Shown piece by piece: positions 1-19,465 of a stretch of 64,000 bases of DNA (its first letter is position 1; each line of letters starts with the position of its first letter). The stretch covers positions 64,652 to 128,651 of the forward strand of contig JAINCN010000021.1 in the NCBI GenBank assembly GCA_036574075.1. Direction: 5' to 3'. Made by a program: the position numbers and the translations under genes. The stretch comes from Deltaproteobacteria bacterium (GTDB lineage Bacteria; Desulfobacterota; Dissulfuribacteria; Dissulfuribacterales; UBA5754). The notes below the pieces were generated by a model that did no database searches, was not told the origin of the DNA, and saw only the letters and a program-made list of their open reading frames with translations.

Positions 1-120
1 CATATCCGCAAGGGTCACTCCCTCGACCTCGCCGCAGAAACCCCTCGGGTTTCCCTTAGGAAACGGGAAATCCCCGCATCCCTTTGGAATATCCAGAGTC
101 ACCCTCGAGGCAGCGTTCAT
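1..120 (-). CDS. hypothetical protein, 5' end only (continues off the left edge)
   Basis: The ATG at 120-118 overlaps the TGA stop of the upstream CheB-like gene (ATGA at 117-120). The frame MNAASRVTLDIPKGCGDFPFPKGNPRGFCGEVEGVTLADM stays open to position 1. No motif recognised. Confidence 0.3.
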   Translation of the reverse strand, partial: MNAASRVTLDIPKGCGDFPFPKGNPRGFCGEVEGVTLADM

Positions 121-1244
121 GGCCTGCTCCACTCCTGGATGACCGCTACGAGTTCGGGCAGGAGCCCAGAGCGGGCCTCCACGGCATCCATGACGCTGCG
201 GACGAGGAAAGGAGAAAGGCAGGTATCGGGCCGCTGGACCCAGATCCTCCCCCCTATACGCTCGACTTCCCGGGCCCCGGAGACCCCCTCTTGCAAATCC
301 CCTGAAAGATAGATGGCCAACGTCCCTTCGCTGAAGTGTTCGCTTGCGGAAAAGAGAAGGAGATCCAGGGGGCCTTCGCGATCAGAGAGATTCGTGCGTC
401 TGGTCACCCGCAGGGTCAGTCTGTCCCCAATTTGCTCAAAGGAGGAAATTTCGTCAGCAGATACGAAATAGGCACATCCTCGCTGGATCACGTCCCGGTC
501 ACGGACTCTCCTGAGGGGAAAGGGGGTATATGTCTGGAGATATTCGATAAAAGAATCGAGATACTGGCTAGACATACCAGCTACGACGATGATTGGCTCG
601 CGGGGCGGTACGGTAAAGGCCGGGAAAAGGCCCAGAAGCGAGGCGTATCCGCCAGTGGATGTCCCAATGACGGACACCCCGGCGGGATATCCCGTTTTCC
701 CTGCTGCTTCGAAAGACGGCGACCTAACGGCCGACCTTCCGAGTCTAAGGTAACGTGCAGCCCCCATGCTCACACCTGCAGCCCTCTTCACCTTCATTCT
801 CAGGACAGTCTTCTGCGCTTCCAGGTCCTCGCCTGATTCCTGGGACGGCTTCTGGAAAAAATCAACCGCGCCATAACGCAGGGCGTCAAATGTGATCCGT
901 GCGCCTTCCGAGGTAAAGGCGCTCACCATGAGGGCAGGCAACGGAGAACGTATCATGATGTGCTTGAGGAGGGTGATGCCGCTCATGCCAGGCATATTTA
1001 CATCAAGCGTACACACATCGACGTCACACCGGGCAAGTCTATCCATGGCCGATTGGCCGCTCATGGCCGTTCCGACCACCTGGATCTCGTCGTCATCCGA
1101 AAAGATCCTCTCAAGTACCTTGCACATCAAGGGTGAGTCATCCACGATGAAGACCCGTGTCCTTTTCCCTTTCTCCGGCCGAACAGTCGCGTCTGCAGCG
1201 CACTCCATGCAAGTCCTCCTCATATGCCTTATGAGATATGGCAA
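117..1244 (-). CDS. CheB-like response regulator (REC plus methylesterase-like domain; triad His apparently absent)
   Basis: 375-aa ORF. N-terminal receiver: VFIVDDSPLMCKVLERIF...CTLDVNMPGMSG...KP. C-terminal domain has a GTSTGG nucleophile-type motif, as in CheB GASTGG. AGM occupies the position where CheB has QHM. Confidence 0.8.
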   Translation of the reverse strand: MPYLIRHMRRTCMECAADATVRPEKGKRTRVFIVDDSPLMCKVLERIFSDDDEIQVVGTAMSGQSAMDRLARCDVDVCTLDVNMPGMSGITLLKHIMIRSPLPALMVSAFTSEGARITFDALRYGAVDFFQKPSQESGEDLEAQKTVLRMKVKRAAGVSMGAARYLRLGRSAVRSPSFEAAGKTGYPAGVSVIGTSTGGYASLLGLFPAFTVPPREPIIVVAGMSSQYLDSFIEYLQTYTPFPLRRVRDRDVIQRGCAYFVSADEISSFEQIGDRLTLRVTRRTNLSDREGPLDLLLFSASEHFSEGTLAIYLSGDLQEGVSGAREVERIGGRIWVQRPDTCLSPFLVRSVMDAVEARSGLLPELVAVIQEWSRP

Positions 1245-2230
1245 GGTCCGTCAGACCCCAGGCCCGTCCTCCCACAGGCCGACAGATAAAGCCTGCGCCC
1301 AAAGGCGCCTATCCTTGCCGACACGTCCCTGTCCACGACAAAACGCCTTGCAAGGGGATCGAAGACGTTTCCATCCGCTCCCTCCACGCCGAGCCGGACG
1401 AACATAACGGGCGGATCCGGGCGACAGGAAAGATTCCGTGCGTACTCGATGAAATCAAAGAAGGTCTCTTTGAGACGGAAGCATCCCCCCCCATTCGCTT
1501 CTATTCCCCTAAAACGTGCCCATGGGGCGAGGTAGCAACCGGCCACGCAAATCTCGTCGATCTCTGTGCAACAATACACGGGCCATGCGAAAACATCCTT
1601 GAGTCCAGCCCCGTAGGACCTGACGAGTTCCGGCACCATGTCGAGATGGGCCAAAACCGCAAGGGGCAGGTTTACATCCAGCTGGGAAAGGATCCTCATG
1701 AACTCCGCAGCACCGCCCTTGCCAACCGCTATCACGACCACCCCTGCTGCATGGTGATCCCTCCATCCCCTATCGCCAGCATGGAGGTGCAATCGGGCGC
1801 GCCTGATCTGGGCCGGCTCCACACCGGCGGCGATTTTCACGATCCGGGCCAGGGACTCGGCCTGTTCGTGGATATCGAGGGAGATGGTCCCGGAGGGTTT
1901 TGGGAAAAAATCCACGGCCCCGAGCCTCAGGGCATCCAGGGTGATTGCGCTCCTGTGGGCAAGTCCGCTCACCATGACCACGGGTTTGGGATACCTCACC
2001 ATGATATGCTTCATGGCCGTGATCCCGTCCATGACGGGCATGTCCACGTCAAGGGTGATGACATCAGGGTCGAGAATGGCGACCGCCTCCAAGGCCTCGA
2101 GCCCGTGCCGTGCCACACCCGCAACCTCTATCTCATTATCTCTCGAAAGGATCTCCACGAGGGCGCGCCTCATGAAGGAGGTATCGTCCACAACAAGTAC
2201 ACGGATCTTGCGTGCTGGCGCCTCAGGCAT
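1229..2230 (-). CDS. CheB-like response regulator paralog with degenerate active site (nucleophile Ser replaced)
   Basis: 333-aa ORF. Receiver: RVLVVDDTSFMRRAL...ITLDVDMPVMDG...KP. The C-terminal domain aligns by eye to the CheB fold, but the nucleophile motif is IAVGKGG (no Ser). AHLD and GADG-like positions are retained. It overlaps the next gene by 16 nt. Confidence 0.75.
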   Translation of the reverse strand: MPEAPARKIRVLVVDDTSFMRRALVEILSRDNEIEVAGVARHGLEALEAVAILDPDVITLDVDMPVMDGITAMKHIMVRYPKPVVMVSGLAHRSAITLDALRLGAVDFFPKPSGTISLDIHEQAESLARIVKIAAGVEPAQIRRARLHLHAGDRGWRDHHAAGVVVIAVGKGGAAEFMRILSQLDVNLPLAVLAHLDMVPELVRSYGAGLKDVFAWPVYCCTEIDEICVAGCYLAPWARFRGIEANGGGCFRLKETFFDFIEYARNLSCRPDPPVMFVRLGVEGADGNVFDPLARRFVVDRDVSARIGAFGRRLYLSACGRTGLGSDGPCHIS

Positions 2231-3092
2231 TGAGCACCCCCGACCATTGCTCTATGAGAAGGTCCTTGTCCTGGCGGAGGCGAAGGGCGATCTTCTTTAC
2301 CGTCTCTGGAGCGAGCCCGAGGGATCTCGGAACGAGCACCTTGTCCACCTCGCCATTTATGGTCCAACCGATGCCGAGTTTCTGACACAGGACATCGGCG
2401 AGAAATACTACGCCTACGGCGACCTCGTGGCATCCTGCTCCCTGGGGTCTGTGGTGATAGCGAAGGACATTCGCGAAAAAATCGCTGAGCCCCCACGAGG
2501 CGGCGAGATAGGCCCCAAGCTCGCCGTGGGTGAGTCCGAAGCGTTCCTCGGCCTCGATGAGGGTGATGCCATCCCTCTCCCTGATAGCAAGGATTTCTCC
2601 CAGTTCGTCAGGGAAATACCGGCAGAGGAGAAATCTCCCCAGGTCGTGTATGAGCCCGGCGGTGAAGATTTCGTTAGCATCCACGCCGGGCATGTTTTCT
2701 GCGATCATCTTTGAGGCCTTCGCAACCCCGATGGAGTGGAGCCATAGATCCCGCACGGCGAATCCCTCCATGTCTGCATACCCGGAAAACGCGGATATCA
2801 AAGACAGTCCGATGACGAGGTTTCTGACCTCCTCGAGGCCAAGCACCACTACCGCACGGGCAACGCTGTTGATCCTGCCGGCACCACCGTAGTACGGGGA
2901 GTTCGCAAGGCGGAGGATCTTCATGGTAAGGACGGGATCCTGCGCGACGATCCGTTCAATGTCGAGGGCTGTAGTGCTCTCCATGTCGAGAACATCAAGG
3001 ACCTGGTGGAACGTATGGGGAATCGGAGGAAGATCTTCCCGCAGGTCGAGCCGCTCCGTGTAGGAAACCCCCATGGACATGGACGAGCCCAT
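2223..3092 (-). CDS. HDOD domain-containing signalling protein
   Basis: 289-aa ORF. Typical HDOD N-terminus LPPIPHTFHQVLDVLDMESTTALDIERIVAQDPVLTMKILRLANSPYYG...VARAVVVLGLEEVRNL and HD-like HDLG. Overlaps the downstream CheB-like gene by 8 nt. Confidence 0.8.
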   Translation of the reverse strand: MGSSMSMGVSYTERLDLREDLPPIPHTFHQVLDVLDMESTTALDIERIVAQDPVLTMKILRLANSPYYGGAGRINSVARAVVVLGLEEVRNLVIGLSLISAFSGYADMEGFAVRDLWLHSIGVAKASKMIAENMPGVDANEIFTAGLIHDLGRFLLCRYFPDELGEILAIRERDGITLIEAEERFGLTHGELGAYLAASWGLSDFFANVLRYHHRPQGAGCHEVAVGVVFLADVLCQKLGIGWTINGEVDKVLVPRSLGLAPETVKKIALRLRQDKDLLIEQWSGVLNA

Positions 3093-3492: not shown

Positions 3493-3897
3493 ATGAGCGA
3501 TTTTGTCCTTACCATACCTGTTCTCGAAAAGACCCGACGCGAGATCGAGAGCCACCTCATCGACGCAGGGGCACACACGGTCCTCATCGTAGACCAGGCA
3601 GGCAATATCATCACAAGCTGCGGCAAGACCAACAACAGCATCCAGGACTTCACATCCCTTGCCGCACTCACAGCGGCAAACTTTGCCGCGACCTCCCAGA
3701 TCGCCAGGCTCATCGGGGAGGACGACTTTTCCCTCCTTTTTCACAAGGGGAAAAAGGACAGCATCCATTTCACCCGACTCGGAGACGACTTCATCCTCGT
3801 CACTATCTTCGGGGATGACGTCTCCCTCGGCATCATTCGGCTCAAGATCTCTGAACTCATACATAGACTGTCTTCCATCCTCGGGATCAGCGTCTGA
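3493..3897 (+). CDS. mglB: Roadblock/LC7 family protein, MglB-like (putative GAP of MglA)
   Basis: Internal ATG at 3493 of the 3262-3897 ORF. Sequence MSDFVLTIPVLEKTRREIESHLIDAGAHTVLIVDQAGNIITSCG...FTSLAALTAANFAATSQIARLIG is Roadblock/LC7-like. The stop is 2 nt before the mglA start, matching the mglB-mglA order in Myxococcus. Confidence 0.8.
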   Translation: MSDFVLTIPVLEKTRREIESHLIDAGAHTVLIVDQAGNIITSCGKTNNSIQDFTSLAALTAANFAATSQIARLIGEDDFSLLFHKGKKDSIHFTRLGDDFILVTIFGDDVSLGIIRLKISELIHRLSSILGISV

Positions 3898-3899
3898 CC

Positions 3900-4523
3900 A
3901 TGGCCCTTATCGATCTGAGCAAGAAGGAAGTCCACTGCAAGATCGTCTACTACGGCCCGGGACGATGCGGGAAGACGACCAACCTCATCTATATCTATAA
4001 CGCTATGAGCGAAAAGACCCGGGGAAAGATGCTCACTATCGAGACAAAGGGAGACCGGACCCTGTTTTTCGATCTCCTGCCCATCAAACTCGGAAAGGTG
4101 GCAGGCTTTGACATCCGCATACAGCTCTACACTGTCCCGGGCCAGAGCATCTACGAGGCAACGCGAAAACTCGTCCTAAAGGGTGTGGACGGGATAGTTT
4201 TCGTGGCCGATTCCCTCAAAATCAGACAGCGCAAAAACATCGACAGCCTCCTCGAACTCACTCAGAACCTGAAGGAACTAAACCGCACCCCCTCCGAGAT
4301 TCCCCTTGTGCTCCAATACAACAAACGTGATCTCGTCACCTCGCCCATACCGACCCTCAGCATCGAGGAACTCGAGCGTGACCTCAACAACGGGCGGCGC
4401 CTCCCCTTTTTTGAGGCGGCGGCGATCAAGGGTATAGGGGTCTTTGAGACACTAAAGGAAATCAGCAAACAGACGGTCAGGCACGTGGCGAACAAGCATC
4501 TCTTCACCAAACCGTCTGGATGA
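3900..4523 (+). CDS. mglA: Ras-like small GTPase MglA
   Basis: 207-aa ORF. P-loop KIVYYGPGRCGKTTNL, MglA-specific switch II LYTVPGQ (instead of DxxGQ), NKRD guanine-specificity motif, LKGVDGIVFVADS. Close by eye to M. xanthus MglA. Confidence 0.92.
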   Translation: MALIDLSKKEVHCKIVYYGPGRCGKTTNLIYIYNAMSEKTRGKMLTIETKGDRTLFFDLLPIKLGKVAGFDIRIQLYTVPGQSIYEATRKLVLKGVDGIVFVADSLKIRQRKNIDSLLELTQNLKELNRTPSEIPLVLQYNKRDLVTSPIPTLSIEELERDLNNGRRLPFFEAAAIKGIGVFETLKEISKQTVRHVANKHLFTKPSG

Positions 4524-4565
4524 CTAATGCCACGCCAAAGGGGATTACGCCCTGAAGGAGTTTCC

Positions 4566-6236
4566 ATGAACGATAACACACCCATCCGTGACCAGGACGA
4601 TTTTCTAAATGAAATCGATGGATCGATCGACGCCCTTTTCGTTCCGACTCGACATATCGAGATCGATGCCCTGACAAACGAGATAAGAGAAAAGACGCCA
4701 CCGAACGATCCCTCCTCCGATGCATCCCCATCCCATCTGGAGGCCCATTCACCTGAAAACAGGGCTTCAGATACCCCCCTGACCCTCGAGCTGGAACCGG
4801 AGCCGGCATCCACGCCTGAGCAAGGCCCAAAGGAAGTCCCTTACGGAGACAACGGCCCAGCCCAAGAGGTGACTTCTTCGCTCAGCTCCCTTGACAGGCT
4901 CCGCCAAGGCATCCTTTCCATCGATTGGGAGATCTCGGACACCACTCTCAAGGAGGTGGAGCAATCCCTCGAGGCGATCGGCTCCAACGGGGCCTTTGCC
5001 GATTCAGCTGGGGCCCTTGGCATCATCGCCCTTCTCAAGGGTATATCCATGCAGCTCCGGAAGGATGTGTCCTCCCCCTCGACCCATATCGTTCGCGCCC
5101 TTCAGAAAGGGCTTACCGGGCTCGTCTCCATTGCAGAAGGACCGCCTGAAGACAGGGAAAAACGGATAGCCGCTCTCAGGGAAGAGCTCGAAAAGGTCAT
5201 GTTTCCCGCATCCGGCTTGGATATCGCCGAATCCGGCAGTACCCCCCAGGCCCCAGAACTGCAAAAAACCACTCCGCCACAGGGCGTTGACGCCATCTCG
5301 CTTGACATCGAACTGGAAGACGCCATCGATAAGGCCATACAGCCAAAAGCCGACACAAAGCCGATTATCGAGGCCCCTTTGCACCCCGTATCATCTGGCC
5401 CGCTGACTCAGGGTCTCTCCGCCTGCGTCCCCCCCCCACTCCTTACGCCGACCGAAACCATAGCCCATCCAGAGGGTGTCCTCGAGGCGGCCATCCTGGA
5501 ACACATCTCCCGCCTTAATAGGTGGATCGAGGGCATCCAGCCTATAGAAAGGCTTTTCTCCTCGACACGGGGCATGGAAAAGCTCAGCGCCTTCCATGCT
5601 AGGCTCATAGGAGACATGAGGCGCGAACGGGATCGCCTCGCTGGCATACTCGAAGGGAAAACTTATCAGGCGCCTGAACCCTCCTCCGCAGCACCTTCGC
5701 ATCCATCCGCCCCTGCAGCTCCTGTCAAATCGACGCAACCTGCCTCCCCATCCCCCTTGCCATGGAAAAATCTATGCGTCGTTTCCGGAAAAGAGGGCCT
5801 TATCGCACTGGTCCCTGAGGAAATCGCCTTTTCCGGCCCAAGCCCGTGGTGGGTCAGGCGCAAGGCATTTAAAGCCCGGAGCTTCCCCCTGAGGATGCTC
5901 AAACCCTGGCCATGGTCCCGCCTGAACACGCTTTTTACCGGAGAACTCGGAGAACTCGACGCCTCCGCCCTCTCATCAGCCGAGTTTCCCGTCCATCCGC
6001 TCACGCTCTCAGGAGAAAATGGCCCTGCGATTCCTCGGCGGCCCCACATCCTTGTCCTTTACGCACAAGGACGCGGATTGATCCTCTTTCTTGCAGTAGG
6101 CCCGAGGCCTTTTGCCCTCACGTCCGAATGGAGCTGGAATCCAGGCGATTCGTCCGAATCCGGCCCCATTGCCGGAGAACTCAGGCGCGGGGGGGAAGCC
6201 ATTCCTGTTCTGTCCGTCCGGAAAATCCTTACATAG
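4566..6236 (+). CDS. hypothetical Pro/Ser/Glu-rich protein with possible C-terminal CheW-like domain
   Basis: Strong SD GAAGGAG (4554-4560) lies 5 nt before the ATG at 4566; the ORF track starts at 4527. The long acidic/proline-rich linkers have no recognisable family. The last ~150 aa (LCVVSGKEGLIALVPEEIAF...PHILVLYAQGRGLILFLAVGP...IAGELRRGGEAIPVLSVRKIL) resemble the CheW beta-barrel pattern. Confidence 0.6.
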   Translation: MNDNTPIRDQDDFLNEIDGSIDALFVPTRHIEIDALTNEIREKTPPNDPSSDASPSHLEAHSPENRASDTPLTLELEPEPASTPEQGPKEVPYGDNGPAQEVTSSLSSLDRLRQGILSIDWEISDTTLKEVEQSLEAIGSNGAFADSAGALGIIALLKGISMQLRKDVSSPSTHIVRALQKGLTGLVSIAEGPPEDREKRIAALREELEKVMFPASGLDIAESGSTPQAPELQKTTPPQGVDAISLDIELEDAIDKAIQPKADTKPIIEAPLHPVSSGPLTQGLSACVPPPLLTPTETIAHPEGVLEAAILEHISRLNRWIEGIQPIERLFSSTRGMEKLSAFHARLIGDMRRERDRLAGILEGKTYQAPEPSSAAPSHPSAPAAPVKSTQPASPSPLPWKNLCVVSGKEGLIALVPEEIAFSGPSPWWVRRKAFKARSFPLRMLKPWPWSRLNTLFTGELGELDASALSSAEFPVHPLTLSGENGPAIPRRPHILVLYAQGRGLILFLAVGPRPFALTSEWSWNPGDSSESGPIAGELRRGGEAIPVLSVRKILT

Positions 6237-6254: not shown

Positions 6255-8570
6255 ATGAATCCTGAATCCATTAAAGCCCTTTTGTACGAGGCGGATCTTT
6301 ACGCCAGCCAAGGCCTCATCTCCGAGGCCCGTCAACTCTATGAAGAACTCCTCGCAAAGGCCGTAAACTATCCACCTCCCCTTGCCACGACCATCAAACA
6401 GAGGCTGGAGGCCCTCACAGGCACACGGACGCAGGCCGTTTCTGCCAACGGCCGCAATCGTCCCGCCCACGATGAAACGGATCGCCATCTCCAGAATGCC
6501 ATCGGCCTCATGGAAGCCGGCTTCCACCGAGAGGCCGTGAGCGAACTCAAGCTCATCCTCGACAAGGGTTATCCCAATGGGGAAATCCATCTCATGATCG
6601 CCGAGGCATATCTCGCCTCCAATCTTCCTTTCGATGCGGTGGATCACTTAGGAGAGGCACTGAAGGACACAAAACTCTCCCCAGAAAAACGCATGGAATG
6701 CCTCTACCGTGCCGCCATCATCCATGAGCAGCTCGGTATGATACCCCAGGCCATAGAAAAATTGAGGCAGATCGTGAGGATCGACCCCGGCTACAGAAAT
6801 TGCCGGGAGCGGCTGGACGGACTGACGCAAAGCGCCCAGAAATTCGGCCAGTACTATCCCCTGATCGCCAAAAATCTCCTGCAGGAAAGCCAGCTCGAGG
6901 AGGCGCGAAGCGCCGCTCGGGCAGGGGGAAAAACCATCGAATCCATCCTTATGACGAGATTTTCTATCGAAAAGGAGGAAATCGGCCGGGCGCTCAGCGA
7001 ATATTACCGCGTACCTTTTATCGAGTTTAACGAGCTCGAGGTGGGAACGGCGCCCGCCTGCATCAAGGGGGTCAAGGAACACTTCTTCCGGGCCAACACC
7101 TGTGTCCCTATCAAGGAAGAACGGGATGTCCTGCTCGTGGCACTCGACAACCCGAACGACCTCGTCAAGATCGACAACATAAAGCGCGTCCTCAAGGCCT
7201 CCCAGTTCGAATTCGCTGTGGCCCTAAAGGAAGACATCGACAAGTTCATCGACTTTTATTTCGGAAAGCTCAGCCTGGGTGGGAAGCAAGGAAACGTCTT
7301 CGATCAGCTGGAGATTTCCGAAGGGGAGGAGGTGGAGACGGATGATGAGGCATCCGACGCATCTGAAGCCGACAGCGTGGTTGTCCAGATGGCGAACACT
7401 ATCATCGAGGACGCCTTTGCAAAAAACGCCTCAGATATCCACATCGAGTCCCTAACCGGGAGGCGGGGGGCTGGAATCCGTCTGAGGATAGACGGCGACT
7501 GCATCCATTACCAGAACGTCCCCTATGAATACAAGCATGCCCTCATCTCCCGCATCAAGATCATGTCATCCCTTGACATCGCGGAAAAGAGGCTCCCTCA
7601 GGACGGAAAGATCAAATTCAAGACGCGACAGGGAAAGACCATCGAACTCCGGGTGGCGACCCTTCCCACCATAGAAGGCAACGAGGACGTGGTCCTTCGT
7701 ATCCTATCGGCATCTGAGGCTATGCCCCTCGACAAGATCGGCCTCATGCCGGATAACCTGGCGGCACTAAAGGATATCCTTGCCATGCCGTACGGCCTCA
7801 TCCTCGTAGTCGGCCCCACGGGTTCTGGAAAGACCACCACACTTCATGCCGCCCTCGGCCACATCAACCGCCCTGAAAAGAAGATCTGGACCGCAGAGGA
7901 TCCCGTGGAAATCGTCCAGGAAGGGCTCCGCCAGGTCCAGGTGAAGCCGGCTATAGGGCTAACATTCGCCCGGGTCCTTAGGGCATTTCTCAGGGCCGAC
8001 CCCGACGTCATCATGGTGGGTGAGACCCGGGATGAAGAAACGGCTACTACCGTTATCGAGGCCTCTCTCACCGGACACCTGGTCTTTTCCACACTCCACA
8101 CGAACTCAGCACCCGAGACGGTCACCCGGCTCCTCGGGATGGGCATGGACCCCTTCAACTTCTCGGACGCACTCCTCGGGATCCTTGCCCAGCGACTTGT
8201 AAAACGCCTCTGCACCAAGTGCAAGGAACCCTACACACCGGACAAGGACGAGATCCAACGACTCATAACGGAATACGGCTCGCACCCATCGAGGCCCCTC
8301 GATCCATCCCGATTCGCATCGGCGACTCTCTACCGGGCGAAGGGCTGCCCATTCTGTAACAACACAGGCTACAAGGGGCGCCTTGCCATCCACGAACTCC
8401 TCATTTCGAACGACGAGTTGAAGAGGCTCATTCAGGAAAAGAGACCGGTCTACGAGATCGCGGATGCCGCCCTGAGGGCGGGCATGCTCACCTTGAAGCA
8501 GGACGGCATCCTGAAGATCCTTTCCGGCGACACCGATATCAAACAGGTCCGCTCGGCATGCATCAAGTAG
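6255..8570 (+). CDS. GspE/PilB-family type IV pilus / T2SS assembly ATPase with N-terminal TPR extension
   Basis: 771-aa ORF. About 200 aa of N-terminal TPR-like repeats (LYASQGLISEARQLYEELL, MEAGFHREAVSELKLIL, GMIPQAIEKLRQIVRIDP). Then a GspE_N-like region, Walker A GPTGSGKTTTL, Asp/His boxes, and a tetracysteine motif CTKCKEPY...CPFCNNTGYKGR. Confidence 0.9.
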   Translation: MNPESIKALLYEADLYASQGLISEARQLYEELLAKAVNYPPPLATTIKQRLEALTGTRTQAVSANGRNRPAHDETDRHLQNAIGLMEAGFHREAVSELKLILDKGYPNGEIHLMIAEAYLASNLPFDAVDHLGEALKDTKLSPEKRMECLYRAAIIHEQLGMIPQAIEKLRQIVRIDPGYRNCRERLDGLTQSAQKFGQYYPLIAKNLLQESQLEEARSAARAGGKTIESILMTRFSIEKEEIGRALSEYYRVPFIEFNELEVGTAPACIKGVKEHFFRANTCVPIKEERDVLLVALDNPNDLVKIDNIKRVLKASQFEFAVALKEDIDKFIDFYFGKLSLGGKQGNVFDQLEISEGEEVETDDEASDASEADSVVVQMANTIIEDAFAKNASDIHIESLTGRRGAGIRLRIDGDCIHYQNVPYEYKHALISRIKIMSSLDIAEKRLPQDGKIKFKTRQGKTIELRVATLPTIEGNEDVVLRILSASEAMPLDKIGLMPDNLAALKDILAMPYGLILVVGPTGSGKTTTLHAALGHINRPEKKIWTAEDPVEIVQEGLRQVQVKPAIGLTFARVLRAFLRADPDVIMVGETRDEETATTVIEASLTGHLVFSTLHTNSAPETVTRLLGMGMDPFNFSDALLGILAQRLVKRLCTKCKEPYTPDKDEIQRLITEYGSHPSRPLDPSRFASATLYRAKGCPFCNNTGYKGRLAIHELLISNDELKRLIQEKRPVYEIADAALRAGMLTLKQDGILKILSGDTDIKQVRSACIK

Positions 8571-16616: not shown

Positions 16617-17819
16617 TTATTTGATGGAACCCATGAGGTCGTAGATAGGACCAAGGAGGCCGATCGCCATCAGGACCATTATGAGCCCGGCGAAAACGAG
16701 CAGGATCGGCTCGATCATCTTGGAGGTGGATTCGACGAGCTTGTCCACGCGCTTCATGGAGTACTCACCGAGGGATGAAAGCTGCCTTGAAAGGGCCCCG
16801 GTCTGTTCACCCACGGAGATCATGCGGATTACAAAGGGTTCGAAGAGTTTGGTGGACATGAAGGCCTCCGATATCTGCTGGCCTGATGCAATGCCGTCCC
16901 GGATCTTCCTGATGGCGTTTTTCATCCTTTCGGAATTGGTCGAGGTTTCCATGAGCTCGAGGGCCCTTTGGAACTGGATCCCTGCCCCAACGAGAAGGGC
17001 GAGGTTATCGAAGAAGAAGGCGAGGGATGCGGTGCGTATTACATTTCCTATGACTGGCGTGCGCTCGATGCAGGTACCAAGGAAGCTTTTAAGGCGCCTG
17101 TTGCGTCTCGATACAGCAGCGAGCCCTAAAATGGCAATGATCAAGAGGGGGGCGACAAACCACCACTGCCTGCAGAAGGAAGAAAATCCCATGAGGAGTC
17201 GAGTGGCCAGGGGGAGACTCGTTAACCCCATCTCCTTGAAGAGTCCAAGTATCTGGGGAAGGACGACTATCATCCAAAAGGCAAGTGCCCCAGTCATGGC
17301 CACAAACACCACTGATGGATACACCAAGGCCCGCTTTGTGTTGGACACGATATGTTCCACCTTCTCTATGTGGCGCGCCCCGTCTTCGAGCGTTTTGTCC
17401 AGGCGTCCTGTCTCTTCCCCGATACGGACCAGGGAGACCACGATGCTGGAAAAGACACCCTTGAGGCCATCCATGGTCTCGGACAGAGGATTGCCGACAT
17501 GGATTCCACGCAGGATCCTCTTGACGAGCAGCCTGAGGGCCGGGTCTCCCGGGGTCCCAGCGATGTCGGTGAGGGCCTGCCTGAGGGGGATCCCGCCTGC
17601 AAGCATTATGGAGATGTTCCTGAGAAGCTCTACCTTGGCAAGACGCTTGAGACGCCTTCGGCCGGCAAGGCGGGTGAAAAGGGAGACACGTCCGTAGTTA
17701 ACGAGGGTGAGGCCTTCGGCCCTGAGGCCTTCGTACATTGCCCCTACGGAGGGAAAGGACCCTATGTCCTTTCTCAATACCCCGGCATTGTCCATTGCCT
17801 CGTAGGAATATAAGGGCAT
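16617..17819 (-). CDS. type II secretion / type IV pilus platform protein (GspF/PilC/MshG family)
   Basis: 400-aa ORF with two GspF repeats and three TM regions. Motifs ...LAGGIPLRQAL... and ...LVGAGIQFQRALELM... Confidence 0.9.
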   Translation of the reverse strand: MPLYSYEAMDNAGVLRKDIGSFPSVGAMYEGLRAEGLTLVNYGRVSLFTRLAGRRRLKRLAKVELLRNISIMLAGGIPLRQALTDIAGTPGDPALRLLVKRILRGIHVGNPLSETMDGLKGVFSSIVVSLVRIGEETGRLDKTLEDGARHIEKVEHIVSNTKRALVYPSVVFVAMTGALAFWMIVVLPQILGLFKEMGLTSLPLATRLLMGFSSFCRQWWFVAPLLIIAILGLAAVSRRNRRLKSFLGTCIERTPVIGNVIRTASLAFFFDNLALLVGAGIQFQRALELMETSTNSERMKNAIRKIRDGIASGQQISEAFMSTKLFEPFVIRMISVGEQTGALSRQLSSLGEYSMKRVDKLVESTSKMIEPILLVFAGLIMVLMAIGLLGPIYDLMGSIK

Positions 17820-19465
17820 TATCCTACCACCCGCATAAATTCTTCTATGCTTGTCTCGCCCCGCGCCACCATCCGGAGGCCAGAGGCTGTCAGATCCGTA
17901 AATCCTTCAGCCCTTAATCTGTCTTCGATGTGCCAGAGCGGGACATCGTCGGCTATGAGTCGGGCCACTTCCTTGCTCACCTTAAATACCTCGCATATCG
18001 CGGACCTCCCGAGATAACCCTTGCCCTGGCATTCTGGACAGCCCCCGGCCTTGAAGTAATTGCCGTCAGGTGAAAGACCGTATCGTTCCAGGATCTCCCG
18101 TGACGGGGAATAGGGCTTTTTGCAGAACGGGCAGAGTTTTCGGATGAGCCGTTGCGATATGACGCCGGCAAGTGTGGATGCAAGGATGAAGGGCGATACG
18201 TTTAGGTCCTTGAGGCGGGCGATCGCCCCGATGGCAGTGGTGGTGTGGAGTGTGGACAGGACCAGGTGTCCGGTGAGTGCGGCTGTGGCTGCGAGGGAGG
18301 CGGTCTCCTCGTCCCTGATCTCGCCTACGAGGATGACGTCCGGGTCCTGCCGGAGGAAGGTCCGTATGGCGGACGCAAATGTATAGCCGGCCTTTTCGTT
18401 CACCTGGGTCTGGCGTATCATCGAATACTCGTACTCGATAGGATCCTCGACGGTGGTGATGTTCTTACCGATGGCGTCCTGTTCCTTGAGGGCAGCGTAA
18501 AGGGTCGTGGTCTTGCCACTCCCTGTGGGTCCGGTTATGAGGACCATGCCGTCAGGGCGGGCGAACAGGCTGCGAATGGTATCGAGCTGACTGCCCTCGA
18601 AGCCCAGGTCCCGGATCGTGACGTGGTCCGTGCCGCGCGACGGGAGAATACGCATGACCACATTTTCGCCGTGGTTGGTGAGGACCGTCGAGACCCGGAT
18701 GTCGTATACGCTTCCAAGGAACTCAAAGCCCATGCGTCCGTCCTGGGGCCTGCGCTGTTCAGCGATATCCATGCCAGAGCGGATCTTGATGGTGGAGACC
18801 AGGCGGTTGTGGAGGGCGAGAGGAAAGACATGGGCAGGAGACAGGACCCCGTCTATCCTCAGGATGATCCTTGACGAGAGGCTACTCGGGGTGAGGTGGA
18901 TATCCGTGGTCCTGTGGCTTACCGCGGCTGCAAGCAGGATGTCCAGTATCCGGTTGGCGTCGATGTCGGCCCCCTGGTCGATCCTCAGACGGGCTATGGC
19001 ATCCTCGATATACCTTTCAGGCGGGTTCTCCAGTAGATAATAAAACTGTTCAACGAGTCTTTTCAGGATGTTGCGACCTGCCACATGGATCGTCGGCGCA
19101 AGGCCCGTGATCCTGAACACCGTCTCGGCAGGCAGGGGATCGTAGGGATCGTGCACCGCGATATGGAGCCGACCGTCCTTCATCATGATGGGCAAGACGC
19201 ACTGCTGGCGGGCAACAGCGGCAGGGATCCTTTTCAGGAGCTCCATGTCAGGGGTGAAGGCCATGAGGTCGACGAAGGGTCTTCCTGCCTGTTCCGCGAT
19301 GACCCTCGCAAGGTCCGAATCTGAGACGAACCCGATACGGAGCAGGCAGTCCCCGAGCCGTTCTCCAGTCGCCTTCTGTTCGGTGAGGGCGAACTCGATC
19401 TGGTTCTCCCTGACAAGACCGCTCTCGAAGAGGAGTTTACCTATCTGTGGCCTGGGGCCTGGCAT
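17819..19465 (-). CDS. MshE-like GspE/PilB-family pilus assembly ATPase with N-terminal MshEN-type domain
   Basis: 548-aa ORF. Walker A GPTGSGKTTTL and tetracysteine CPFCKKPY...CPECQGKGYLGR. The N-terminus carries two 24-residue RLGxxLLxxGLVxxxxLxxxLxxQ-type motifs separated by 5 residues. Confidence 0.9.
   Translation of the reverse strand: MPGPRPQIGKLLFESGLVRENQIEFALTEQKATGERLGDCLLRIGFVSDSDLARVIAEQAGRPFVDLMAFTPDMELLKRIPAAVARQQCVLPIMMKDGRLHIAVHDPYDPLPAETVFRITGLAPTIHVAGRNILKRLVEQFYYLLENPPERYIEDAIARLRIDQGADIDANRILDILLAAAVSHRTTDIHLTPSSLSSRIILRIDGVLSPAHVFPLALHNRLVSTIKIRSGMDIAEQRRPQDGRMGFEFLGSVYDIRVSTVLTNHGENVVMRILPSRGTDHVTIRDLGFEGSQLDTIRSLFARPDGMVLITGPTGSGKTTTLYAALKEQDAIGKNITTVEDPIEYEYSMIRQTQVNEKAGYTFASAIRTFLRQDPDVILVGEIRDEETASLAATAALTGHLVLSTLHTTTAIGAIARLKDLNVSPFILASTLAGVISQRLIRKLCPFCKKPYSPSREILERYGLSPDGNYFKAGGCPECQGKGYLGRSAICEVFKVSKEVARLIADDVPLWHIEDRLRAEGFTDLTASGLRMVARGETSIEEFMRVVG

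What the first reader, a model, noticed from the sequence alone, without database searches (positions are those of the whole stretch)
4566..6236. Family-less 556-aa protein downstream of mglA with a possible cryptic CheW-like C-terminus
Most of the protein is low-complexity acidic/Pro/Ser linker interrupted by short helical islands (for example LSSLDRLRQGILSIDWEISDTTLKEVEQSLEAIG and EHISRLNRWIEGIQPIERLF). The final ~150 aa show a CheW-like succession of beta-strand motifs: LCVVSGKEGLIALVPEEIAF, then a basic/aromatic loop, then PHILVLYAQGRGLILFLAVGP, then IAGELRRGGEAIPVLSVRKIL. A CheW-like docking domain on a disordered scaffold, encoded between mglA and a pilus ATPase, could couple the CheB-like regulators to the GTPase/ATPase module. 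It has a strong SD (GAAGGAG) at 4554-4560, so it is very likely expressed.
Basis: inference. Interest (0 to 1): 0.55.

Follow-up and report, generated by a model that had tools for sequence, protein, structure and literature searches.

The report
Kinase-less CheA-like scaffold beside MglA
This unannotated 556-residue protein is predicted to end in a CheW-like docking domain and to contain a histidine-less CheA-P1-like helical bundle, and it is always encoded directly after the polarity GTPase pair MglB/MglA, so it is probably a non-enzymatic adaptor that links a Ras-like switch to a pilus motor.

Summary
ORF 4566-6236(+) encodes 556 aa, has the stated Shine-Dalgarno site, and matches no Pfam or NCBIfam model. 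NCBI calls it "hypothetical protein".

An AlphaFold2 model of residues 392-556 (pLDDT 87) finds only CheW or CheA-P5 structures as its top 17 PDB matches. A profile-profile comparison with CheW scores far above shuffled controls.

Two corrections:
- Only about 32% of the protein is disordered linker, not most of it.
- The "helical islands" are a 109-aa five-helix bundle that resembles the CheA P1/Hpt domain but has no conserved histidine, and a 62-aa helical hairpin.

The order is P1-like, hairpin, P5-like, with no kinase (P4) domain. The closest known layouts are the CheA-derived scaffolds CheA3 and FimL.

The family has at least 87 cluster representatives, and every genome hit is in Desulfobacterota. 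All 27 fetched loci show the order mglB-mglA-X-TPR/MshEN/PilB-like ATPase wherever the contig is long enough. Distant relatives keep mglB-mglA-X. The adjacent CheB-like genes keep their receiver residues but lack the esterase triad.

Best reading: a non-catalytic adaptor between MglA/MglB, receiver proteins and the pilus ATPase. The fold and the synteny are shown; the binding partners are inferred.

The parts
4554..4560 (+). Shine-Dalgarno sequence GAAGGAG, 5 nt upstream of the ATG at 4566
   Evidence: Read directly from the sequence
4566..6236 (+). ORF X: 556 aa plus stop. It starts 42 nt after the mglA stop and ends 18 nt before the ATPase start, an operon-like spacing
   Evidence: Exact match to NCBI MEF3168310.1 'hypothetical protein'
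4593..4691 (+). N-terminal conserved motif, residues 10-42 (F13, I17, I21, D22, L24, F25, P27, then IEIDPLTxE at 31-39). Modelled as a helix plus two short strands
   Evidence: Column counts over 86 members. pLDDT about 80. Detected in about 74 of 150 collected sequences
4701..4874 (+). Linker 1, residues 46-103: disordered, Pro/Ser/acid-rich, with the conserved acidic motif LTLELE at residues 72-77
   Evidence: pLDDT < 50; composition; motif conservation
4875..5201 (+). Five-helix bundle, residues 104-212, resembling CheA P1/Hpt. Signature L[TS][LI][ED]WE at 117-122. The position equivalent to CheA His48 (residue 136) is variable
   Evidence: pLDDT about 95. Foldseek ranks 8-21 (except rank 10, a CheW) are CheA P1 or designs derived from P1. 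hhalign against E. coli P1 scores 22.3 versus a null of 9.4+/-1.7. No conserved His
5202..5468 (+). Linker 2, residues 213-301: disordered, with the acidic motif LDIELE
   Evidence: pLDDT < 50
5469..5654 (+). Helical hairpin, residues 302-363 (helices 302-333 and 338-363; motif T-x-G-M-E-K-L-x-x-F at the turn). It sits where CheA has P3 but shows no sequence similarity to P3. It is repeated 2-3 times in some members
   Evidence: pLDDT about 95. hhalign against CheA P3 equals the null. Repeats
5655..5753 (+). Linker 3, residues 364-396: Pro/Ser-rich. It occupies the place where CheA has its kinase (P4) domain
   Evidence: No HATPase_c hit
5754..6233 (+). C-terminal CheW/CheA-P5-like double beta-barrel domain, residues 397-556
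   Evidence: AF2 pLDDT 87.2, pTM 0.83. Foldseek top 17 all CheW/CheA-P5. hhalign score 29.5 versus a null of 10.7+/-1.9, 0 of 200 shuffles
5847..5978 (+). Family-specific helical insert within the CheW-like fold, residues about 428-471. It carries the most conserved signature, FPLKxLKxWPWSKL...G.L (L445, K446, P449, W450, G459, L461, L469 in >= 90% of members)
   Evidence: hhalign aligns only residues 468-555 to CheW 60-150, so the preceding segment is longer than in CheW
3496..3897 (+). mglB-like Roadblock/LC7 gene (start codon uncertain; the ORF extends to 3262)
   Evidence: PF03259 E=1e-12; NCBIfam MglB E=4e-15, below the family cut-off
3900..4523 (+). mglA (Ras-like polarity GTPase)
   Evidence: E=1.9e-61 to M. 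xanthus MglA structures over the full length
6255..8570 (+). PilB/GspE-type ATPase, 771 aa, with N-terminal TPR repeats and an MshEN domain
   Evidence: T2SSE E=1e-118, MshEN 2e-13, TPR hits; PilB/GspE models
2223..3092 (-). HDOD-domain gene, divergently transcribed
   Evidence: PF08668 E=4e-56. Syntenic in about 13 related loci
117..2230 (-). Two REC-CheB-like genes (117-1244 and 1229-2230). The receiver residues are intact but the methylesterase triad is degenerate
   Evidence: Pfam. Alignment to E. coli CheB, whose recalled sequence was checked against 1a2o

Best explanation
X is a non-catalytic modular adaptor, probably derived from CheA. It has four folded or conserved parts joined by three flexible Pro/Ser/acid-rich linkers that carry short acidic motifs:
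- a conserved N-terminal peptide motif;
- a P1/Hpt-like five-helix bundle without the phospho-accepting histidine;
- a helical hairpin;
- a CheW/P5-like double beta-barrel with a family-specific conserved insert.

X has no kinase domain, so it cannot signal by phosphotransfer. It most likely acts by binding.

Proposed mechanism (inferred):
- The Hpt-like bundle is the module most widely co-inherited with mglB-mglA. It docks MglA (or MglA/MglB) and/or the receiver domains of the neighbouring pseudo-CheB/CheY-like regulators, as Hpt domains dock receivers and as RomX bridges a receiver to MglA-GTP.
- The CheW-like domain and the N-terminal motif tether this complex to the TPR-MshEN-PilB-like ATPase or to a polar assembly.
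- The result is that the GTPase state and the receiver phosphorylation state together decide where or when the pilus motor is active.

Shown: the folds, the absence of the His and of the kinase domain, the size of the family, and the synteny. Inferred: every binding partner and the output.
For: Fold of the C-terminus:
- AF2 pLDDT 87.2, pTM 0.83.
- Foldseek top 17 hits are all CheW or CheA-P5, followed by a sharp drop.
- Sequence profile against a 9-sequence CheW/P5 profile: score 29.5 (P=4e-4) versus column-shuffled 10.7+/-1.9, maximum 18.7, 0 of 200 shuffles reaching it. The register matches the CheW core residues: L61->L469 (61/62), P67->P475 (58/62), G99->G504 (50/62), D103->D/E510 (50/62), G133->G537 (61/62).
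- CheW is the only Pfam family that recurs among members, although weakly.

Mid domain:
- In the full-length model, all 21 top Foldseek hits are CheW/P5, CheA P1, or designed proteins that are CheA-P1 derivatives by sequence. TM-scores normalised to the target are 0.58-0.69 for most P1 hits.
- hhalign against E. coli P1 aligns 111 columns collinearly (P1 residues 14-126). Score 22.3 versus a null of 9.4+/-1.7, 0 of 150 shuffles.

No catalysis:
- No HATPase_c hit, and only 33 residues lie between the hairpin and the CheW-like domain.
- The His48-equivalent position varies among E, K, D and S.

Linkage:
- mglB-mglA-X-ATPase is present in all 27 loci where the contig allows. X is 24-30% identical across them, versus 70-79% for MglA and 53-65% for the ATPase.
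- Distant relatives, including proteins with only duplicated mid domains, still follow mglB-mglA directly.
- HDOD plus 2-4 REC-CheB-like genes lie upstream in about 13 loci. A PATAN-REC-CheB-like gene and a CheY-like gene are also present in L003.
- The CheB-like proteins keep the receiver residues but lack the Ser/His/Asp triad. The locus therefore looks like a set of chemosensory-derived binding proteins.

Precedents from the literature:
- CheA3 = Hpt + degenerate domains + CheW (PMC10542144).
- FimL = a ChpA N-terminal homologue that holds the receiver protein PilG at the pole (PMC10519157).
- RomX bridges RomR-REC and MglA-GTP (bioRxiv 10.1101/2024.02.20.581209).
- MglA-SgmX(TPR)-PilB axis (PMC7519303, PMC7668184).
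- PATAN receivers bind PilB1 (bioRxiv 10.1101/2021.06.11.447907).
Against: - No interaction was tested; all partners are inferred from gene order and from analogy.
- Neither domain reaches significance against Pfam or PDB sequences.
- Foldseek E-values are modest: 3e-4 for P5 and 0.03-0.3 for P1. TM-scores normalised to the query are about 0.45-0.50.
- Helical bundles give non-specific matches. The A7 profile's best PDB sequence hits are designed helical repeat proteins.
- The hairpin has no detectable similarity to CheA P3 and is tandemly repeated in some members. This weakens a strict P1-P3-P5 homology.
- The column-shuffle null destroys local secondary-structure patterns and is therefore lenient.
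- HDOD and CheB-like genes are absent within 8 kb in about 7 loci. The ATPase is absent next to some distant members. Not all proposed partners are therefore universal.
Confidence: 0.55

Rival explanations
1. X is a true chemosensory-array component. Its CheW-like domain would insert into receptor/CheA arrays encoded elsewhere in the genome, as CheW, CheV or ParP do. It would tether MglA/MglB and the pilus ATPase to those arrays, or the arrays to a pole.
For: CheW/P5 fold. The layout of N-terminal partner peptide, Pro-rich linker and C-terminal CheW-like domain mirrors ParP, which integrates into arrays through MCP and CheA contacts (PMC5706961). The receiver domains of the neighbouring CheB-like proteins are phosphorylatable, so a kinase must exist somewhere.
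Against: No MCP, CheA, CheW or CheR was found among the ORFs scanned in window 1-31 kb, among the ten flanking ORFs scanned in L003, or in the called genes of the looked-up contigs; the only CheW-like signal in the window or any fetched locus was one weak tblastn hit with E. coli CheW in L004. The CheW hallmark Arg62/Gly63 is not conserved: residue 470 is K26/S9/R7 of 62, and residue 471 is G in 14 of 62. The segment that carries receptor-contact residues in CheW (statement from general knowledge) is replaced or extended by a family-specific WPW insert. The adjacent CheB-like proteins lack the esterase triad, which argues against methylated receptors as partners.
Confidence: 0.2
2. X is a regulator of the MglA cycle rather than an effector or scaffold. 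It would act as an exchange factor or polar recruitment factor analogous to RomR/RomX, or as a co-GAP with MglB.
For: The strictest and most widespread linkage is mglB-mglA-X, even where the ATPase is missing. The helical-bundle domain is the common denominator. RomX is a helical bundle that binds MglA-GTP and a receiver domain, and RomR has Pro-rich and acidic disordered regions (bioRxiv 10.1101/2024.02.20.581209).
Against: The RomX structure 8ZNA is not among the top 50 Foldseek hits; the bundle resembles Hpt (five helices), not the three-helix RomX fold. This reading gives the conserved CheW-like domain no role. There is no biochemical evidence.
Confidence: 0.15
3. The CheW-like and Hpt-like resemblances are convergent or incidental. 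X would be simply a lineage-specific disordered polar hub or structural protein with no functional relation to chemosensory proteins.
For: No significant sequence match to any curated family. Fast evolution: 24-30% identity where the neighbours are 53-79%. Foldseek E-values are modest and TM-scores about 0.45-0.69.
Against: Two different domains of the same protein independently retrieve two different domains of the same known protein, CheA, in the same N-to-C order, to the exclusion of everything else in the top 21 hits. Profile scores exceed every shuffle for both domains. The locus is rich in other chemosensory-derived domains: REC-CheB-like, CheY-like and PATAN-REC.
Confidence: 0.08

Closest known systems
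CheA3 of Cereibacter (Rhodobacter) sphaeroides (non-autophosphorylating CheA paralogue: Hpt ... CheW domain)
   Same: An N-proximal Hpt/P1 domain and a C-terminal CheW/P5 domain in one polypeptide that cannot autophosphorylate. The CheA3 P1 structure (3kyj/3kyi) is the best P1-type Foldseek match. The architecture is described in PMC10542144.
   Different: CheA3 keeps the phospho-accepting His in its first Hpt and keeps degenerate P2, P3 and HATPase domains. It works with CheA4 inside a cytoplasmic chemoreceptor array that controls flagella. X has no conserved His and no kinase remnant (a 33-aa linker instead). It is undetectable by Pfam, and it sits with MglA/MglB and a PilB-like ATPase with no receptors nearby.
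FimL of Pseudomonas/Acinetobacter (ChpA N-terminus homologue, scaffold of the Pil-Chp system)
   Same: A kinase-less derivative of a CheA-type protein. It acts by binding a receiver protein (PilG) and a polar hub, and thereby influences recruitment of the PilB extension ATPase (PMC10519157).
   Different: To my knowledge FimL has no CheW-like domain, and it is not linked to MglA/MglB. Sequence or structural relatedness to X was not tested here.
CheW / CheA-P5 / CheV coupling domains (Pfam PF01584)
   Same: The same two-barrel fold and the same order of core residues.
   Different: Below Pfam detection. The Arg62/Gly63 hallmark is not conserved. There is an extra helical insert of about 25 aa with the WPW signature. 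The domain is fused to long linkers and helical domains. No receptor or kinase genes are nearby.
ParP (Vibrio/Pseudomonas array-tethering protein)
   Same: A modular design of N-terminal partner-binding peptide, Pro-rich linker and C-terminal CheW-like domain. It links a nucleotide-dependent positioning protein (ParC) to a larger assembly (PMC5706961).
   Different: ParP's partner is a ParA-type ATPase and its target is a true chemoreceptor array. X additionally has the Hpt-like bundle and the hairpin, and its partner by synteny is a Ras-like GTPase. Homology was not tested.
MglA partners in Myxococcus: SgmX (TPR effector that activates T4P) and RomR/RomX
   Same: A functional niche: proteins that connect MglA-GTP to the PilB side of the pilus machine or to receiver domains (PMC7519303, PMC7668184, bioRxiv 10.1101/2024.02.20.581209).
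   Different: No fold similarity was detected. Here the TPR repeats are fused to the ATPase itself, and X has chemosensory-type folds.

Membership tests
CheW-like domain (CheW / CheA-P5 / CheV; Pfam PF01584) | Fold of two intertwined five-stranded beta-barrel subdomains | tested here: met
   AF2 model pLDDT 87.2, pTM 0.83, with 11 strands. Foldseek top 17 are all CheW/CheA-P5, probability 1.00-0.82, then <= 0.08. Reproduced with the full-length model.
CheW-like domain (CheW / CheA-P5 / CheV; Pfam PF01584) | Significant match to the curated profile PF01584 | tested here: not met
   0 hits for the query up to E=10. Only 3 of 86 family members match, best E=0.016. PDB sequence profile searches found no CheW.
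CheW-like domain (CheW / CheA-P5 / CheV; Pfam PF01584) | Profile-profile sequence similarity in the structural register | tested here: inconclusive
   hhalign P=4e-4 to 8e-4, with probability only 24-36% against a thin CheW profile. It covers CheW 56-152, the second two-thirds of the domain. The score of 29.5 exceeds all 200 column shuffles (maximum 18.7). HHpred against a deep CheW profile was not available.
CheW-like domain (CheW / CheA-P5 / CheV; Pfam PF01584) | Conserved NLRG motif (E. coli CheW Arg62/Gly63) and core Gly/Pro/Asp positions | tested here: not met
   Core positions are kept: L469 61/62, P475 58/62, G504 50/62, D/E510 50/62, G537 61/62. The Arg62 equivalent (residue 470) is K26/S9/R7/A6 and the Gly63 equivalent (residue 471) is G in 14 of 62.
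CheW-like domain (CheW / CheA-P5 / CheV; Pfam PF01584) | Operates with chemoreceptors (MCP) and CheA | not testable with these tools
   None were found among the ORFs scanned in window 1-31 kb or in the flanks of L003, and none in the called genes of the looked-up contigs (9, 10, 67-71); tblastn with E. coli CheW gave only one weak hit, in L004. The rest of each genome could not be searched.
CheA histidine kinase | HATPase_c (P4) kinase domain, present in all CheA by definition (PMC10542144) | tested here: not met
   No HATPase_c hit in the query or the family. Only a 33-residue Pro/Ser linker lies between the hairpin and the CheW-like domain.
CheA histidine kinase | P1/Hpt helical bundle | tested here: met
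   Residues 104-212 form five helices with pLDDT about 95. Foldseek ranks 8-21 (except rank 10, a CheW) are CheA P1 or P1-derived designs, most with target-normalised TM 0.58-0.69. hhalign aligns 111 collinear columns with P=1.3-1.7e-3, above all 150 shuffles. This is fold-level support; the sequence evidence is weak.
CheA histidine kinase | Phospho-accepting histidine (E. coli His48) in helix B of P1 | tested here: not met
   The aligned position is residue 136 (Glu in the query) and is E15/K11/D11/S10 across 86 members. There is no conserved His anywhere in the domain.
CheA histidine kinase | P3 dimerisation hairpin | tested here: inconclusive
   A confident two-helix hairpin lies at the equivalent position (residues 302-363). 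hhalign against E. coli P3 equals the shuffled background (9.5 versus 9.2+/-1.9). The module is repeated 2-3 times in about 19 members.
RomX-like MglA-GTP adaptor (three-helix bundle, PDB 8ZNA) | RomX fold | tested here: not met
   8ZNA is absent from the top 50 Foldseek PDB hits of the full-length model. The bundle has five helices and matches Hpt.
MglA/MglB module (context of the finding) | Upstream genes are true MglA and a Roadblock GAP | tested here: met
   MglA: E=1.9e-61 over the full length to M. xanthus MglA. Roadblock/LC7 PF03259 E=1e-12; NCBIfam MglB E=4e-15, below the family cut-off.

The most novel reading that the evidence does not exclude
X would be the hub of a receptor-free, kinase-free module assembled from relics of a chemosensory pathway. 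The relics are a pseudo-CheA (P1-like and P5-like, with no His and no P4) and pseudo-CheB proteins (phosphorylatable receivers fused to dead esterases). This module would have been rewired onto the MglA/MglB Ras-like switch so that GTPase state and receiver phosphorylation are integrated directly on a TPR-MshEN-PilB-type pilus motor. That would be a previously undescribed physical link between chemotaxis-type scaffolding and small-GTPase polarity control. It would be widespread in Desulfobacterota, with mid-domain-only relatives serving MglA/MglB elsewhere.
Probability: 0.3. Interest if true: 0.75.

Novelty: new variant of a known kind. Interest (0 to 1): 0.62.

Why it matters
How small Ras-like GTPases such as MglA are wired to chemosensory input and to the pilus motor is known in detail only for Myxococcus. 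There the link is indirect (Frz, then RomR/RomX and MglA, then SgmX and PilB), and the genes are scattered.

Here a whole candidate pathway sits in one conserved gene block, and the unknown middle gene has chemosensory-type docking folds. If the predicted contacts are real, the locus offers three things:
- a compact, testable model for coupling a GTPase switch and receiver phosphorylation to a type IV-like pilus ATPase;
- a definition for a currently unannotated family (at least 87 clusters at 50% identity) that standard annotation misses;
- another example, alongside CheA3 and FimL, of CheA domains reused as pure scaffolds.

It also shows that the Hpt-like 'LTLEWE' bundle is a recurrent companion of MglA/MglB. 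That could help to identify MglA partners in other phyla.

Tried and rejected
Searches that gave nothing useful:
- Pfam-A and NCBIfam on the query and on the C-terminus alone: no hit.
- PDB sequence profile searches with the 5-sequence and 62-sequence C-terminal alignments: nothing relevant. The only hits were weak MoaE and nanobody matches at E>0.1, judged to be chance.
- PDB profile search with the mid-domain alignment: dominated by designed helical repeat proteins through composition, with CheA P1 only at E=0.93. Not informative.
- The search for homologous proteins with the query found only 4 relatives. The exhaustive representative search was needed to reveal the family.
- The search for homologous proteins with a CheW alignment returned almost only E. 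coli-like CheW. The CheW profile therefore stayed thin (Neff about 2.5), which limited hhalign power.
It worked with the 15 closest sequences, but through a single N-terminal peptide pattern, so the 25 genome loci are biased towards members that have that motif.
- Pfam on 10 proteins with weak or partial profile matches (mid-domain-only, mid-mid or mid-C architectures): no family.

Ideas tested and dropped:
- The hairpin as the CheA P3 dimerisation domain: no sequence signal, and it is repeated in some members. Kept only as a positional analogy.
- A phosphorylatable Hpt: rejected, no conserved His.
- A RomX-like fold: not among the hits.
- A canonical CheW gene in the window or loci: only one weak hit, in L004.
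- A PilZ or other beta-barrel identity for the C-terminus: no such Foldseek hits.
- The alternative start at ATG 4527: not supported by homologue N-termini or by the NCBI model.
Full report
**1. The observation**

The ORF list shows an open frame from 4527 to 6236 on the + strand. The ATG at 4566 is preceded by GAAGGAG at 4554-4560 and gives 556 residues plus a stop. The same 556-aa sequence is deposited at NCBI as MEF3168310.1, "MAG: hypothetical protein [Deltaproteobacteria bacterium]".

The protein has no hit in Pfam-A or NCBIfam up to E=1, and the C-terminal 165 residues alone have none up to E=10.

The neighbours are as described:
- 3900-4523 is a true MglA, with E=1.9e-61 over its full length to the M. 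xanthus MglA structures and with the TVPGQ and DRTLFFD motifs.
- 3496-3897 is a Roadblock/LC7 (MglB-type) protein.
- 6255-8570 is a 771-aa PilB/GspE-type ATPase with N-terminal TPR repeats and an MshEN domain.
- HDOD and two REC-CheB-like genes lie on the opposite strand upstream.
- A complete MSHA/T2SS-like pilus cluster lies on the minus strand from 8.7 to 19.5 kb: pseudopilins, a TPR protein, secretin, an AAA_22 ATPase, T2SSF and a second MshEN-T2SSE ATPase.
- Beyond 19.5 kb, the next ten ORFs (to about 31 kb) include housekeeping, transport and Tol-Pal-type genes and a PAS histidine kinase; none is a chemosensory or pilus gene.

**2. X belongs to a real but unannotated family**

The word-indexed search found only four relatives (89, 78, 28 and 28% identity). 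An exhaustive HMM search of 1.84 billion cluster representatives, using the 5-sequence alignment, found 149 proteins at E<=1e-3, 87 at E<=1e-10 and 69 at E<=1e-30.

Alignments show four conserved blocks separated by variable linkers:
- an N-terminal motif (F13, I17, I21, D22, L24, F25, P27, IEIDPLTxE at 31-39);
- a mid domain with the signature L[TS][LI][ED]WE (W121 in 74 and E122 in 76 of about 77 occupied rows);
- a hairpin with the motif TxGxEKLxxF;
- a C-terminal domain with CPW...FPLKxLKxWPWSKL...G.L...LPV...LY...G...LD...W.P...G.L...IPV.

Sub-HMM searches over the 150 collected sequences give these architectures:

| Architecture | Count |
|---|---|
| N-mid-hairpin-C | 51 |
| mid-C | 23 |
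| mid alone | 19 |
| mid-mid | 12 |
| hairpin repeated 2-3 times | about 19 |

**3. Structure**

*C-terminus.* AlphaFold2 was run on residues 392-556 with the 62-sequence alignment. It gave pLDDT 87.2 and pTM 0.83, with eleven strands and short helices.

Foldseek against the PDB returned CheA-P5 or CheW as all of its first 17 hits. These include 6s1k_A (3.3e-4), 8c5v_A, 3ur1_A, 9a72_B, 2ch4, 4jpb_A (TM 0.60 on the target), 2qdl, 1k0s and 2ho9. Probabilities are 1.00 to 0.82, and from rank 18 they fall to 0.08 or less.

*Sequence-level support.* hhalign of the family profile against a thin CheW/P5 profile aligns residues 468-555 with CheW 56-152 (P=4e-4 to 8e-4). The CheW sequences were E. coli CheW, verified against 2ho9, plus T. 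maritima and Caldanaerobacter CheW, E. coli CheA-P5 and five enterobacterial CheW. The score of 29.5 compares with 10.7+/-1.9 (maximum 18.7) for 200 column-shuffled profiles and 10.8 for the reversed profile.

In that register the CheW core residues are kept: L61/L469, P67/P475, G99/G504, D103/D-or-E510 and G133/G537. The hallmark Arg62/Gly63 is not kept: residue 470 is K26/S9/R7 and residue 471 is G in 14 of 62.

The stretch between the first strands and the LPV motif is about 25 residues longer than in CheW. It carries the family's best-conserved signature, LKxWPWSKL. The fold is therefore CheW-like, but the surface has probably been re-specified (inference).

*Full length.* The full-length model (86-sequence alignment, pLDDT 76) has these parts:

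| Residues | Feature | pLDDT |
|---|---|---|
| 10-42 | helix plus two short strands | about 80 |
| 46-103 | disordered | < 50 |
| 104-212 | five-helix bundle | about 95 |
| 213-301 | disordered | < 50 |
| 302-363 | helical hairpin | about 95 |
| 364-396 | linker | mostly < 60 |
| 397-556 | CheW-like domain | about 90 |

The linkers add up to 180 residues (32%) and are rich in Pro, Ser and acidic residues.

**4. A second CheA-type domain**

Foldseek with the full-length model again lists CheW/P5 first (ranks 1-7 and 10). Ranks 8-21 otherwise are CheA P1/Hpt domains: CheA3 P1 of R. sphaeroides (3kyj/3kyi, TM 0.66 on the target), 8c5v_C, 2lp4, 1i5n A-D (up to 0.69), 2ld6 and 1tqg. The remaining entries in that range are 7t2y and 3u3b.

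A phmmer search with E. coli CheA shows that 3u3b/2lch, 7t2y/7t03 and 6fes are designed proteins derived from CheA P1 (E=1e-7, 2e-5 and 2e-9). The recalled CheA sequence was verified as identical to 6s1k_A in the same call. All 21 top structural neighbours of X are therefore CheA- or CheW-related.

hhalign of the mid-domain profile against E. coli P1 aligns 111 columns collinearly (P1 residues 14-126; P=1.3-1.7e-3). The score is 22.3 versus 9.4+/-1.7 (maximum 15.6) for 150 shuffles. The whole-protein profile also picks this region as its best match to full-length CheA.

The position aligned with the phospho-accepting His48 is residue 136 (Glu). It varies among E, K, D and S across the family, and no His is conserved anywhere in the domain.

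The hairpin sits where CheA has P3, but it shows no sequence similarity to P3 (9.5 versus a null of 9.2). No HATPase_c domain exists. X is therefore not a CheA, because HATPase_c is present in all CheA (PMC10542144). It has a collinear P1-like ... P5-like layout.

**5. Genomic linkage**

The two metagenomic relatives at 28% identity lie in (HDOD)-Roadblock-MglA-X-TPR/MshEN/T2SSE blocks.

A scan of one genome per GTDB species found 25 loci, all in Desulfobacterota MAGs or isolates: Desulfobulbia, Desulfobacterales, Thermodesulfobacteriaceae and Dissulfuribacterales. This scan used a single N-terminal peptide pattern, so it is biased towards members that have that motif.

tblastn with the window's proteins shows mglB-mglA-X-ATPase in every locus where the contig extends far enough. 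Identities are 70-79% for MglA, 51-70% for MglB, 53-65% for the ATPase, and only 24-30% for X. The one exception is the 78% sister genome.

HDOD plus two to four REC-CheB-like genes lie upstream on the other strand in about 13 loci, and are absent within 8 kb in about 7. In L003 the upstream operon also encodes a DUF4388(PATAN)-REC-CheB-like protein and a single-domain CheY-like receiver.

Distant members keep the link to the GTPase pair:
- P0069 (three hairpins): mglB-mglA-X-ATPase.
- P0091 and P0099: Roadblock-MglA-X without the ATPase.
- P0124 (two mid domains, no CheW-like domain): directly after an MglB-like and an MglA-like gene.
- P0089: not linked.

The invariant association is thus mglB-mglA-X. 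The Hpt-like bundle is the domain most broadly shared among these MglA/MglB-adjacent proteins.

**6. The neighbours are also "dead" chemosensory parts**

The three CheB-like proteins were aligned to E. coli CheB, whose recalled sequence was checked against 1a2o. All three retain the receiver residues (DD, Asp56, Ser/Thr, Lys109) but not the Ser164/His190/Asp286 triad:

| Protein | Ser164 | His190 | Asp286 |
|---|---|---|---|
| 117-1244 | kept | Gly | Glu |
| 1229-2230 | Lys | Asp at the aligned position | region missing |
| PATAN-REC-CheB of L003 | Pro | Asp | Glu |

No MCP, CheA, CheW or CheR was found among the ORFs scanned in the first 31 kb of the window, among the ten ORFs scanned in the flanks of L003, or in the called genes of the contigs looked up (9, 10, 67-71). 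A tblastn with E. coli CheW against the window and loci L001-L027 gave only one weak hit, in L004.

**7. How it most likely works**

*Shown:* X is a multi-domain protein with two chemosensory docking folds, no catalytic histidine, no kinase, flexible linkers and conserved short motifs. It is co-inherited with MglB/MglA and, in Desulfobacterota, with a TPR-MshEN-PilB-like ATPase and often with phosphorylatable pseudo-CheB proteins.

*Inferred:* X is an adaptor.
- Hpt domains are receiver-binding modules. FimL, a kinase-less homologue of the ChpA N-terminus, holds the receiver PilG at the pole and so influences PilB recruitment (PMC10519157).
- RomX is a helical bundle that bridges a receiver domain and MglA-GTP (bioRxiv 10.1101/2024.02.20.581209).
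- By analogy, the Hpt-like bundle of X would bind MglA (or MglA/MglB) and/or the receiver domains.
- The CheW-like domain, with its WPW insert, and the N-terminal IEIDPLT motif would bind the ATPase or a polar structure. The ATPase's TPR repeats recall SgmX, the TPR effector that connects MglA-GTP to T4P activation (PMC7519303, PMC7668184). CheW-like domains are known docking modules, as in ParP (PMC5706961).
- PATAN-receiver proteins bind PilB1 in Synechocystis (bioRxiv 10.1101/2021.06.11.447907), and MglA/MglB genes have been noted near PATAN genes (PMC4316618). This supports the idea that the block controls a pilus motor.

I put about 0.55 on this scaffold reading, 0.2 on integration into true chemoreceptor arrays, 0.15 on a primary role as an MglA regulator, and under 0.1 on an incidental resemblance.

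**8. Comparison with known systems and novelty**

The closest architecture is CheA3 of C. sphaeroides: Hpt ... CheW with non-functional intervening domains (PMC10542144). CheA3 keeps its His, keeps degenerate P2/P3/P4 domains and works in a receptor array. FimL and ParP are functional analogues.

The survey of prokaryotic Ras-like GTPases describes variable neighbourhoods for Group 1 MglA and mentions PATAN, but no protein like X (PMC4316618). Full-text searches for CheW-like together with MglA found no description of such a family.

I classify X as a new variant of a known kind: a CheA/CheW-derived, kinase-less scaffold attached to a Ras-like GTPase module. It is interesting to specialists because it suggests a direct physical bridge between chemosensory-type scaffolding and MglA polarity control. 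The function is still unproven.

Noticed in passing
window 117-1244(-), 1229-2230(-); L003 2302-3747(-): The REC-CheB-like proteins keep all receiver phospho-acceptor residues but lack the methylesterase Ser164/His190/Asp286 triad. They are probably pseudo-esterases used as phosphorylation-controlled binding modules.
   Followed up: partly
L003 1924-2295(-) and 2302-3747(-), corresponding to DNA just beyond the left edge of the window: The divergent operon continues with a DUF4388 (PATAN)-REC-CheB-like protein and a single-domain CheY-like receiver. PATAN receivers are known PilB1 binders in cyanobacteria.
   Followed up: partly
window 6255-8570(+) versus 17819-19465(-): The locus has two MshEN-T2SSE ATPases. 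One is a canonical MshE-like protein inside the MSHA/T2SS-like cluster (8.7-19.5 kb, minus strand). The other is a 771-aa paralogue with N-terminal TPR repeats that is co-transcribed with mglB-mglA-X. In other genomes the TPR-ATPase block is not next to the pilus cluster within 8 kb.
   Followed up: partly
P0124 (L030 2362-4731), P0141, P0092 and about 9 further sequences with the same mid-mid architecture: Proteins with only the Hpt-like 'LTLEWE' bundle, often duplicated and without the CheW-like domain. P0124 is encoded directly after MglB-like and MglA-like genes. The bundle may be a general MglA/MglB-associated module.
   Followed up: partly
P0086 (5466 aa): A giant protein matched the profile in 25 separate stretches, the best-scoring one over profile positions 114-186 (part of the mid domain). 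A stricter mid-domain HMM did not recover it, so it may be a repetitive helical protein matching by composition.
   Followed up: no
window 4656-4673, 4779-4796, 5301-5318 (residues 31-36 IEIDAL, 72-77 LTLELE, 246-251 LDIELE): Short alternating hydrophobic/acidic motifs recur in the N-terminal region and in both long linkers. The pattern occurs about 4 times more often in family members than in shuffled sequences (1.13 versus 0.27 per protein). They may be short linear binding motifs.
   Followed up: partly
family members P0069, P0015, P0018, P0023 and others: The helical hairpin module (query residues 302-363) is tandemly repeated two or three times in about 19 of the collected sequences.
   Followed up: no
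window 4527-4565: An in-frame upstream ATG would add 13 residues (MPRQRGLRPEGVS). It has no Shine-Dalgarno site and is not supported by homologue N-termini or by the NCBI gene model.
   Followed up: yes
window 6861-7001 (ATPase residues about 203-249): The MshE-type c-di-GMP-binding motif model matches only weakly (NF053729 E=0.0014, below the cut-off). By eye the first RLGxx motif looks degenerate. Whether this ATPase still binds c-di-GMP is unclear.
   Followed up: no
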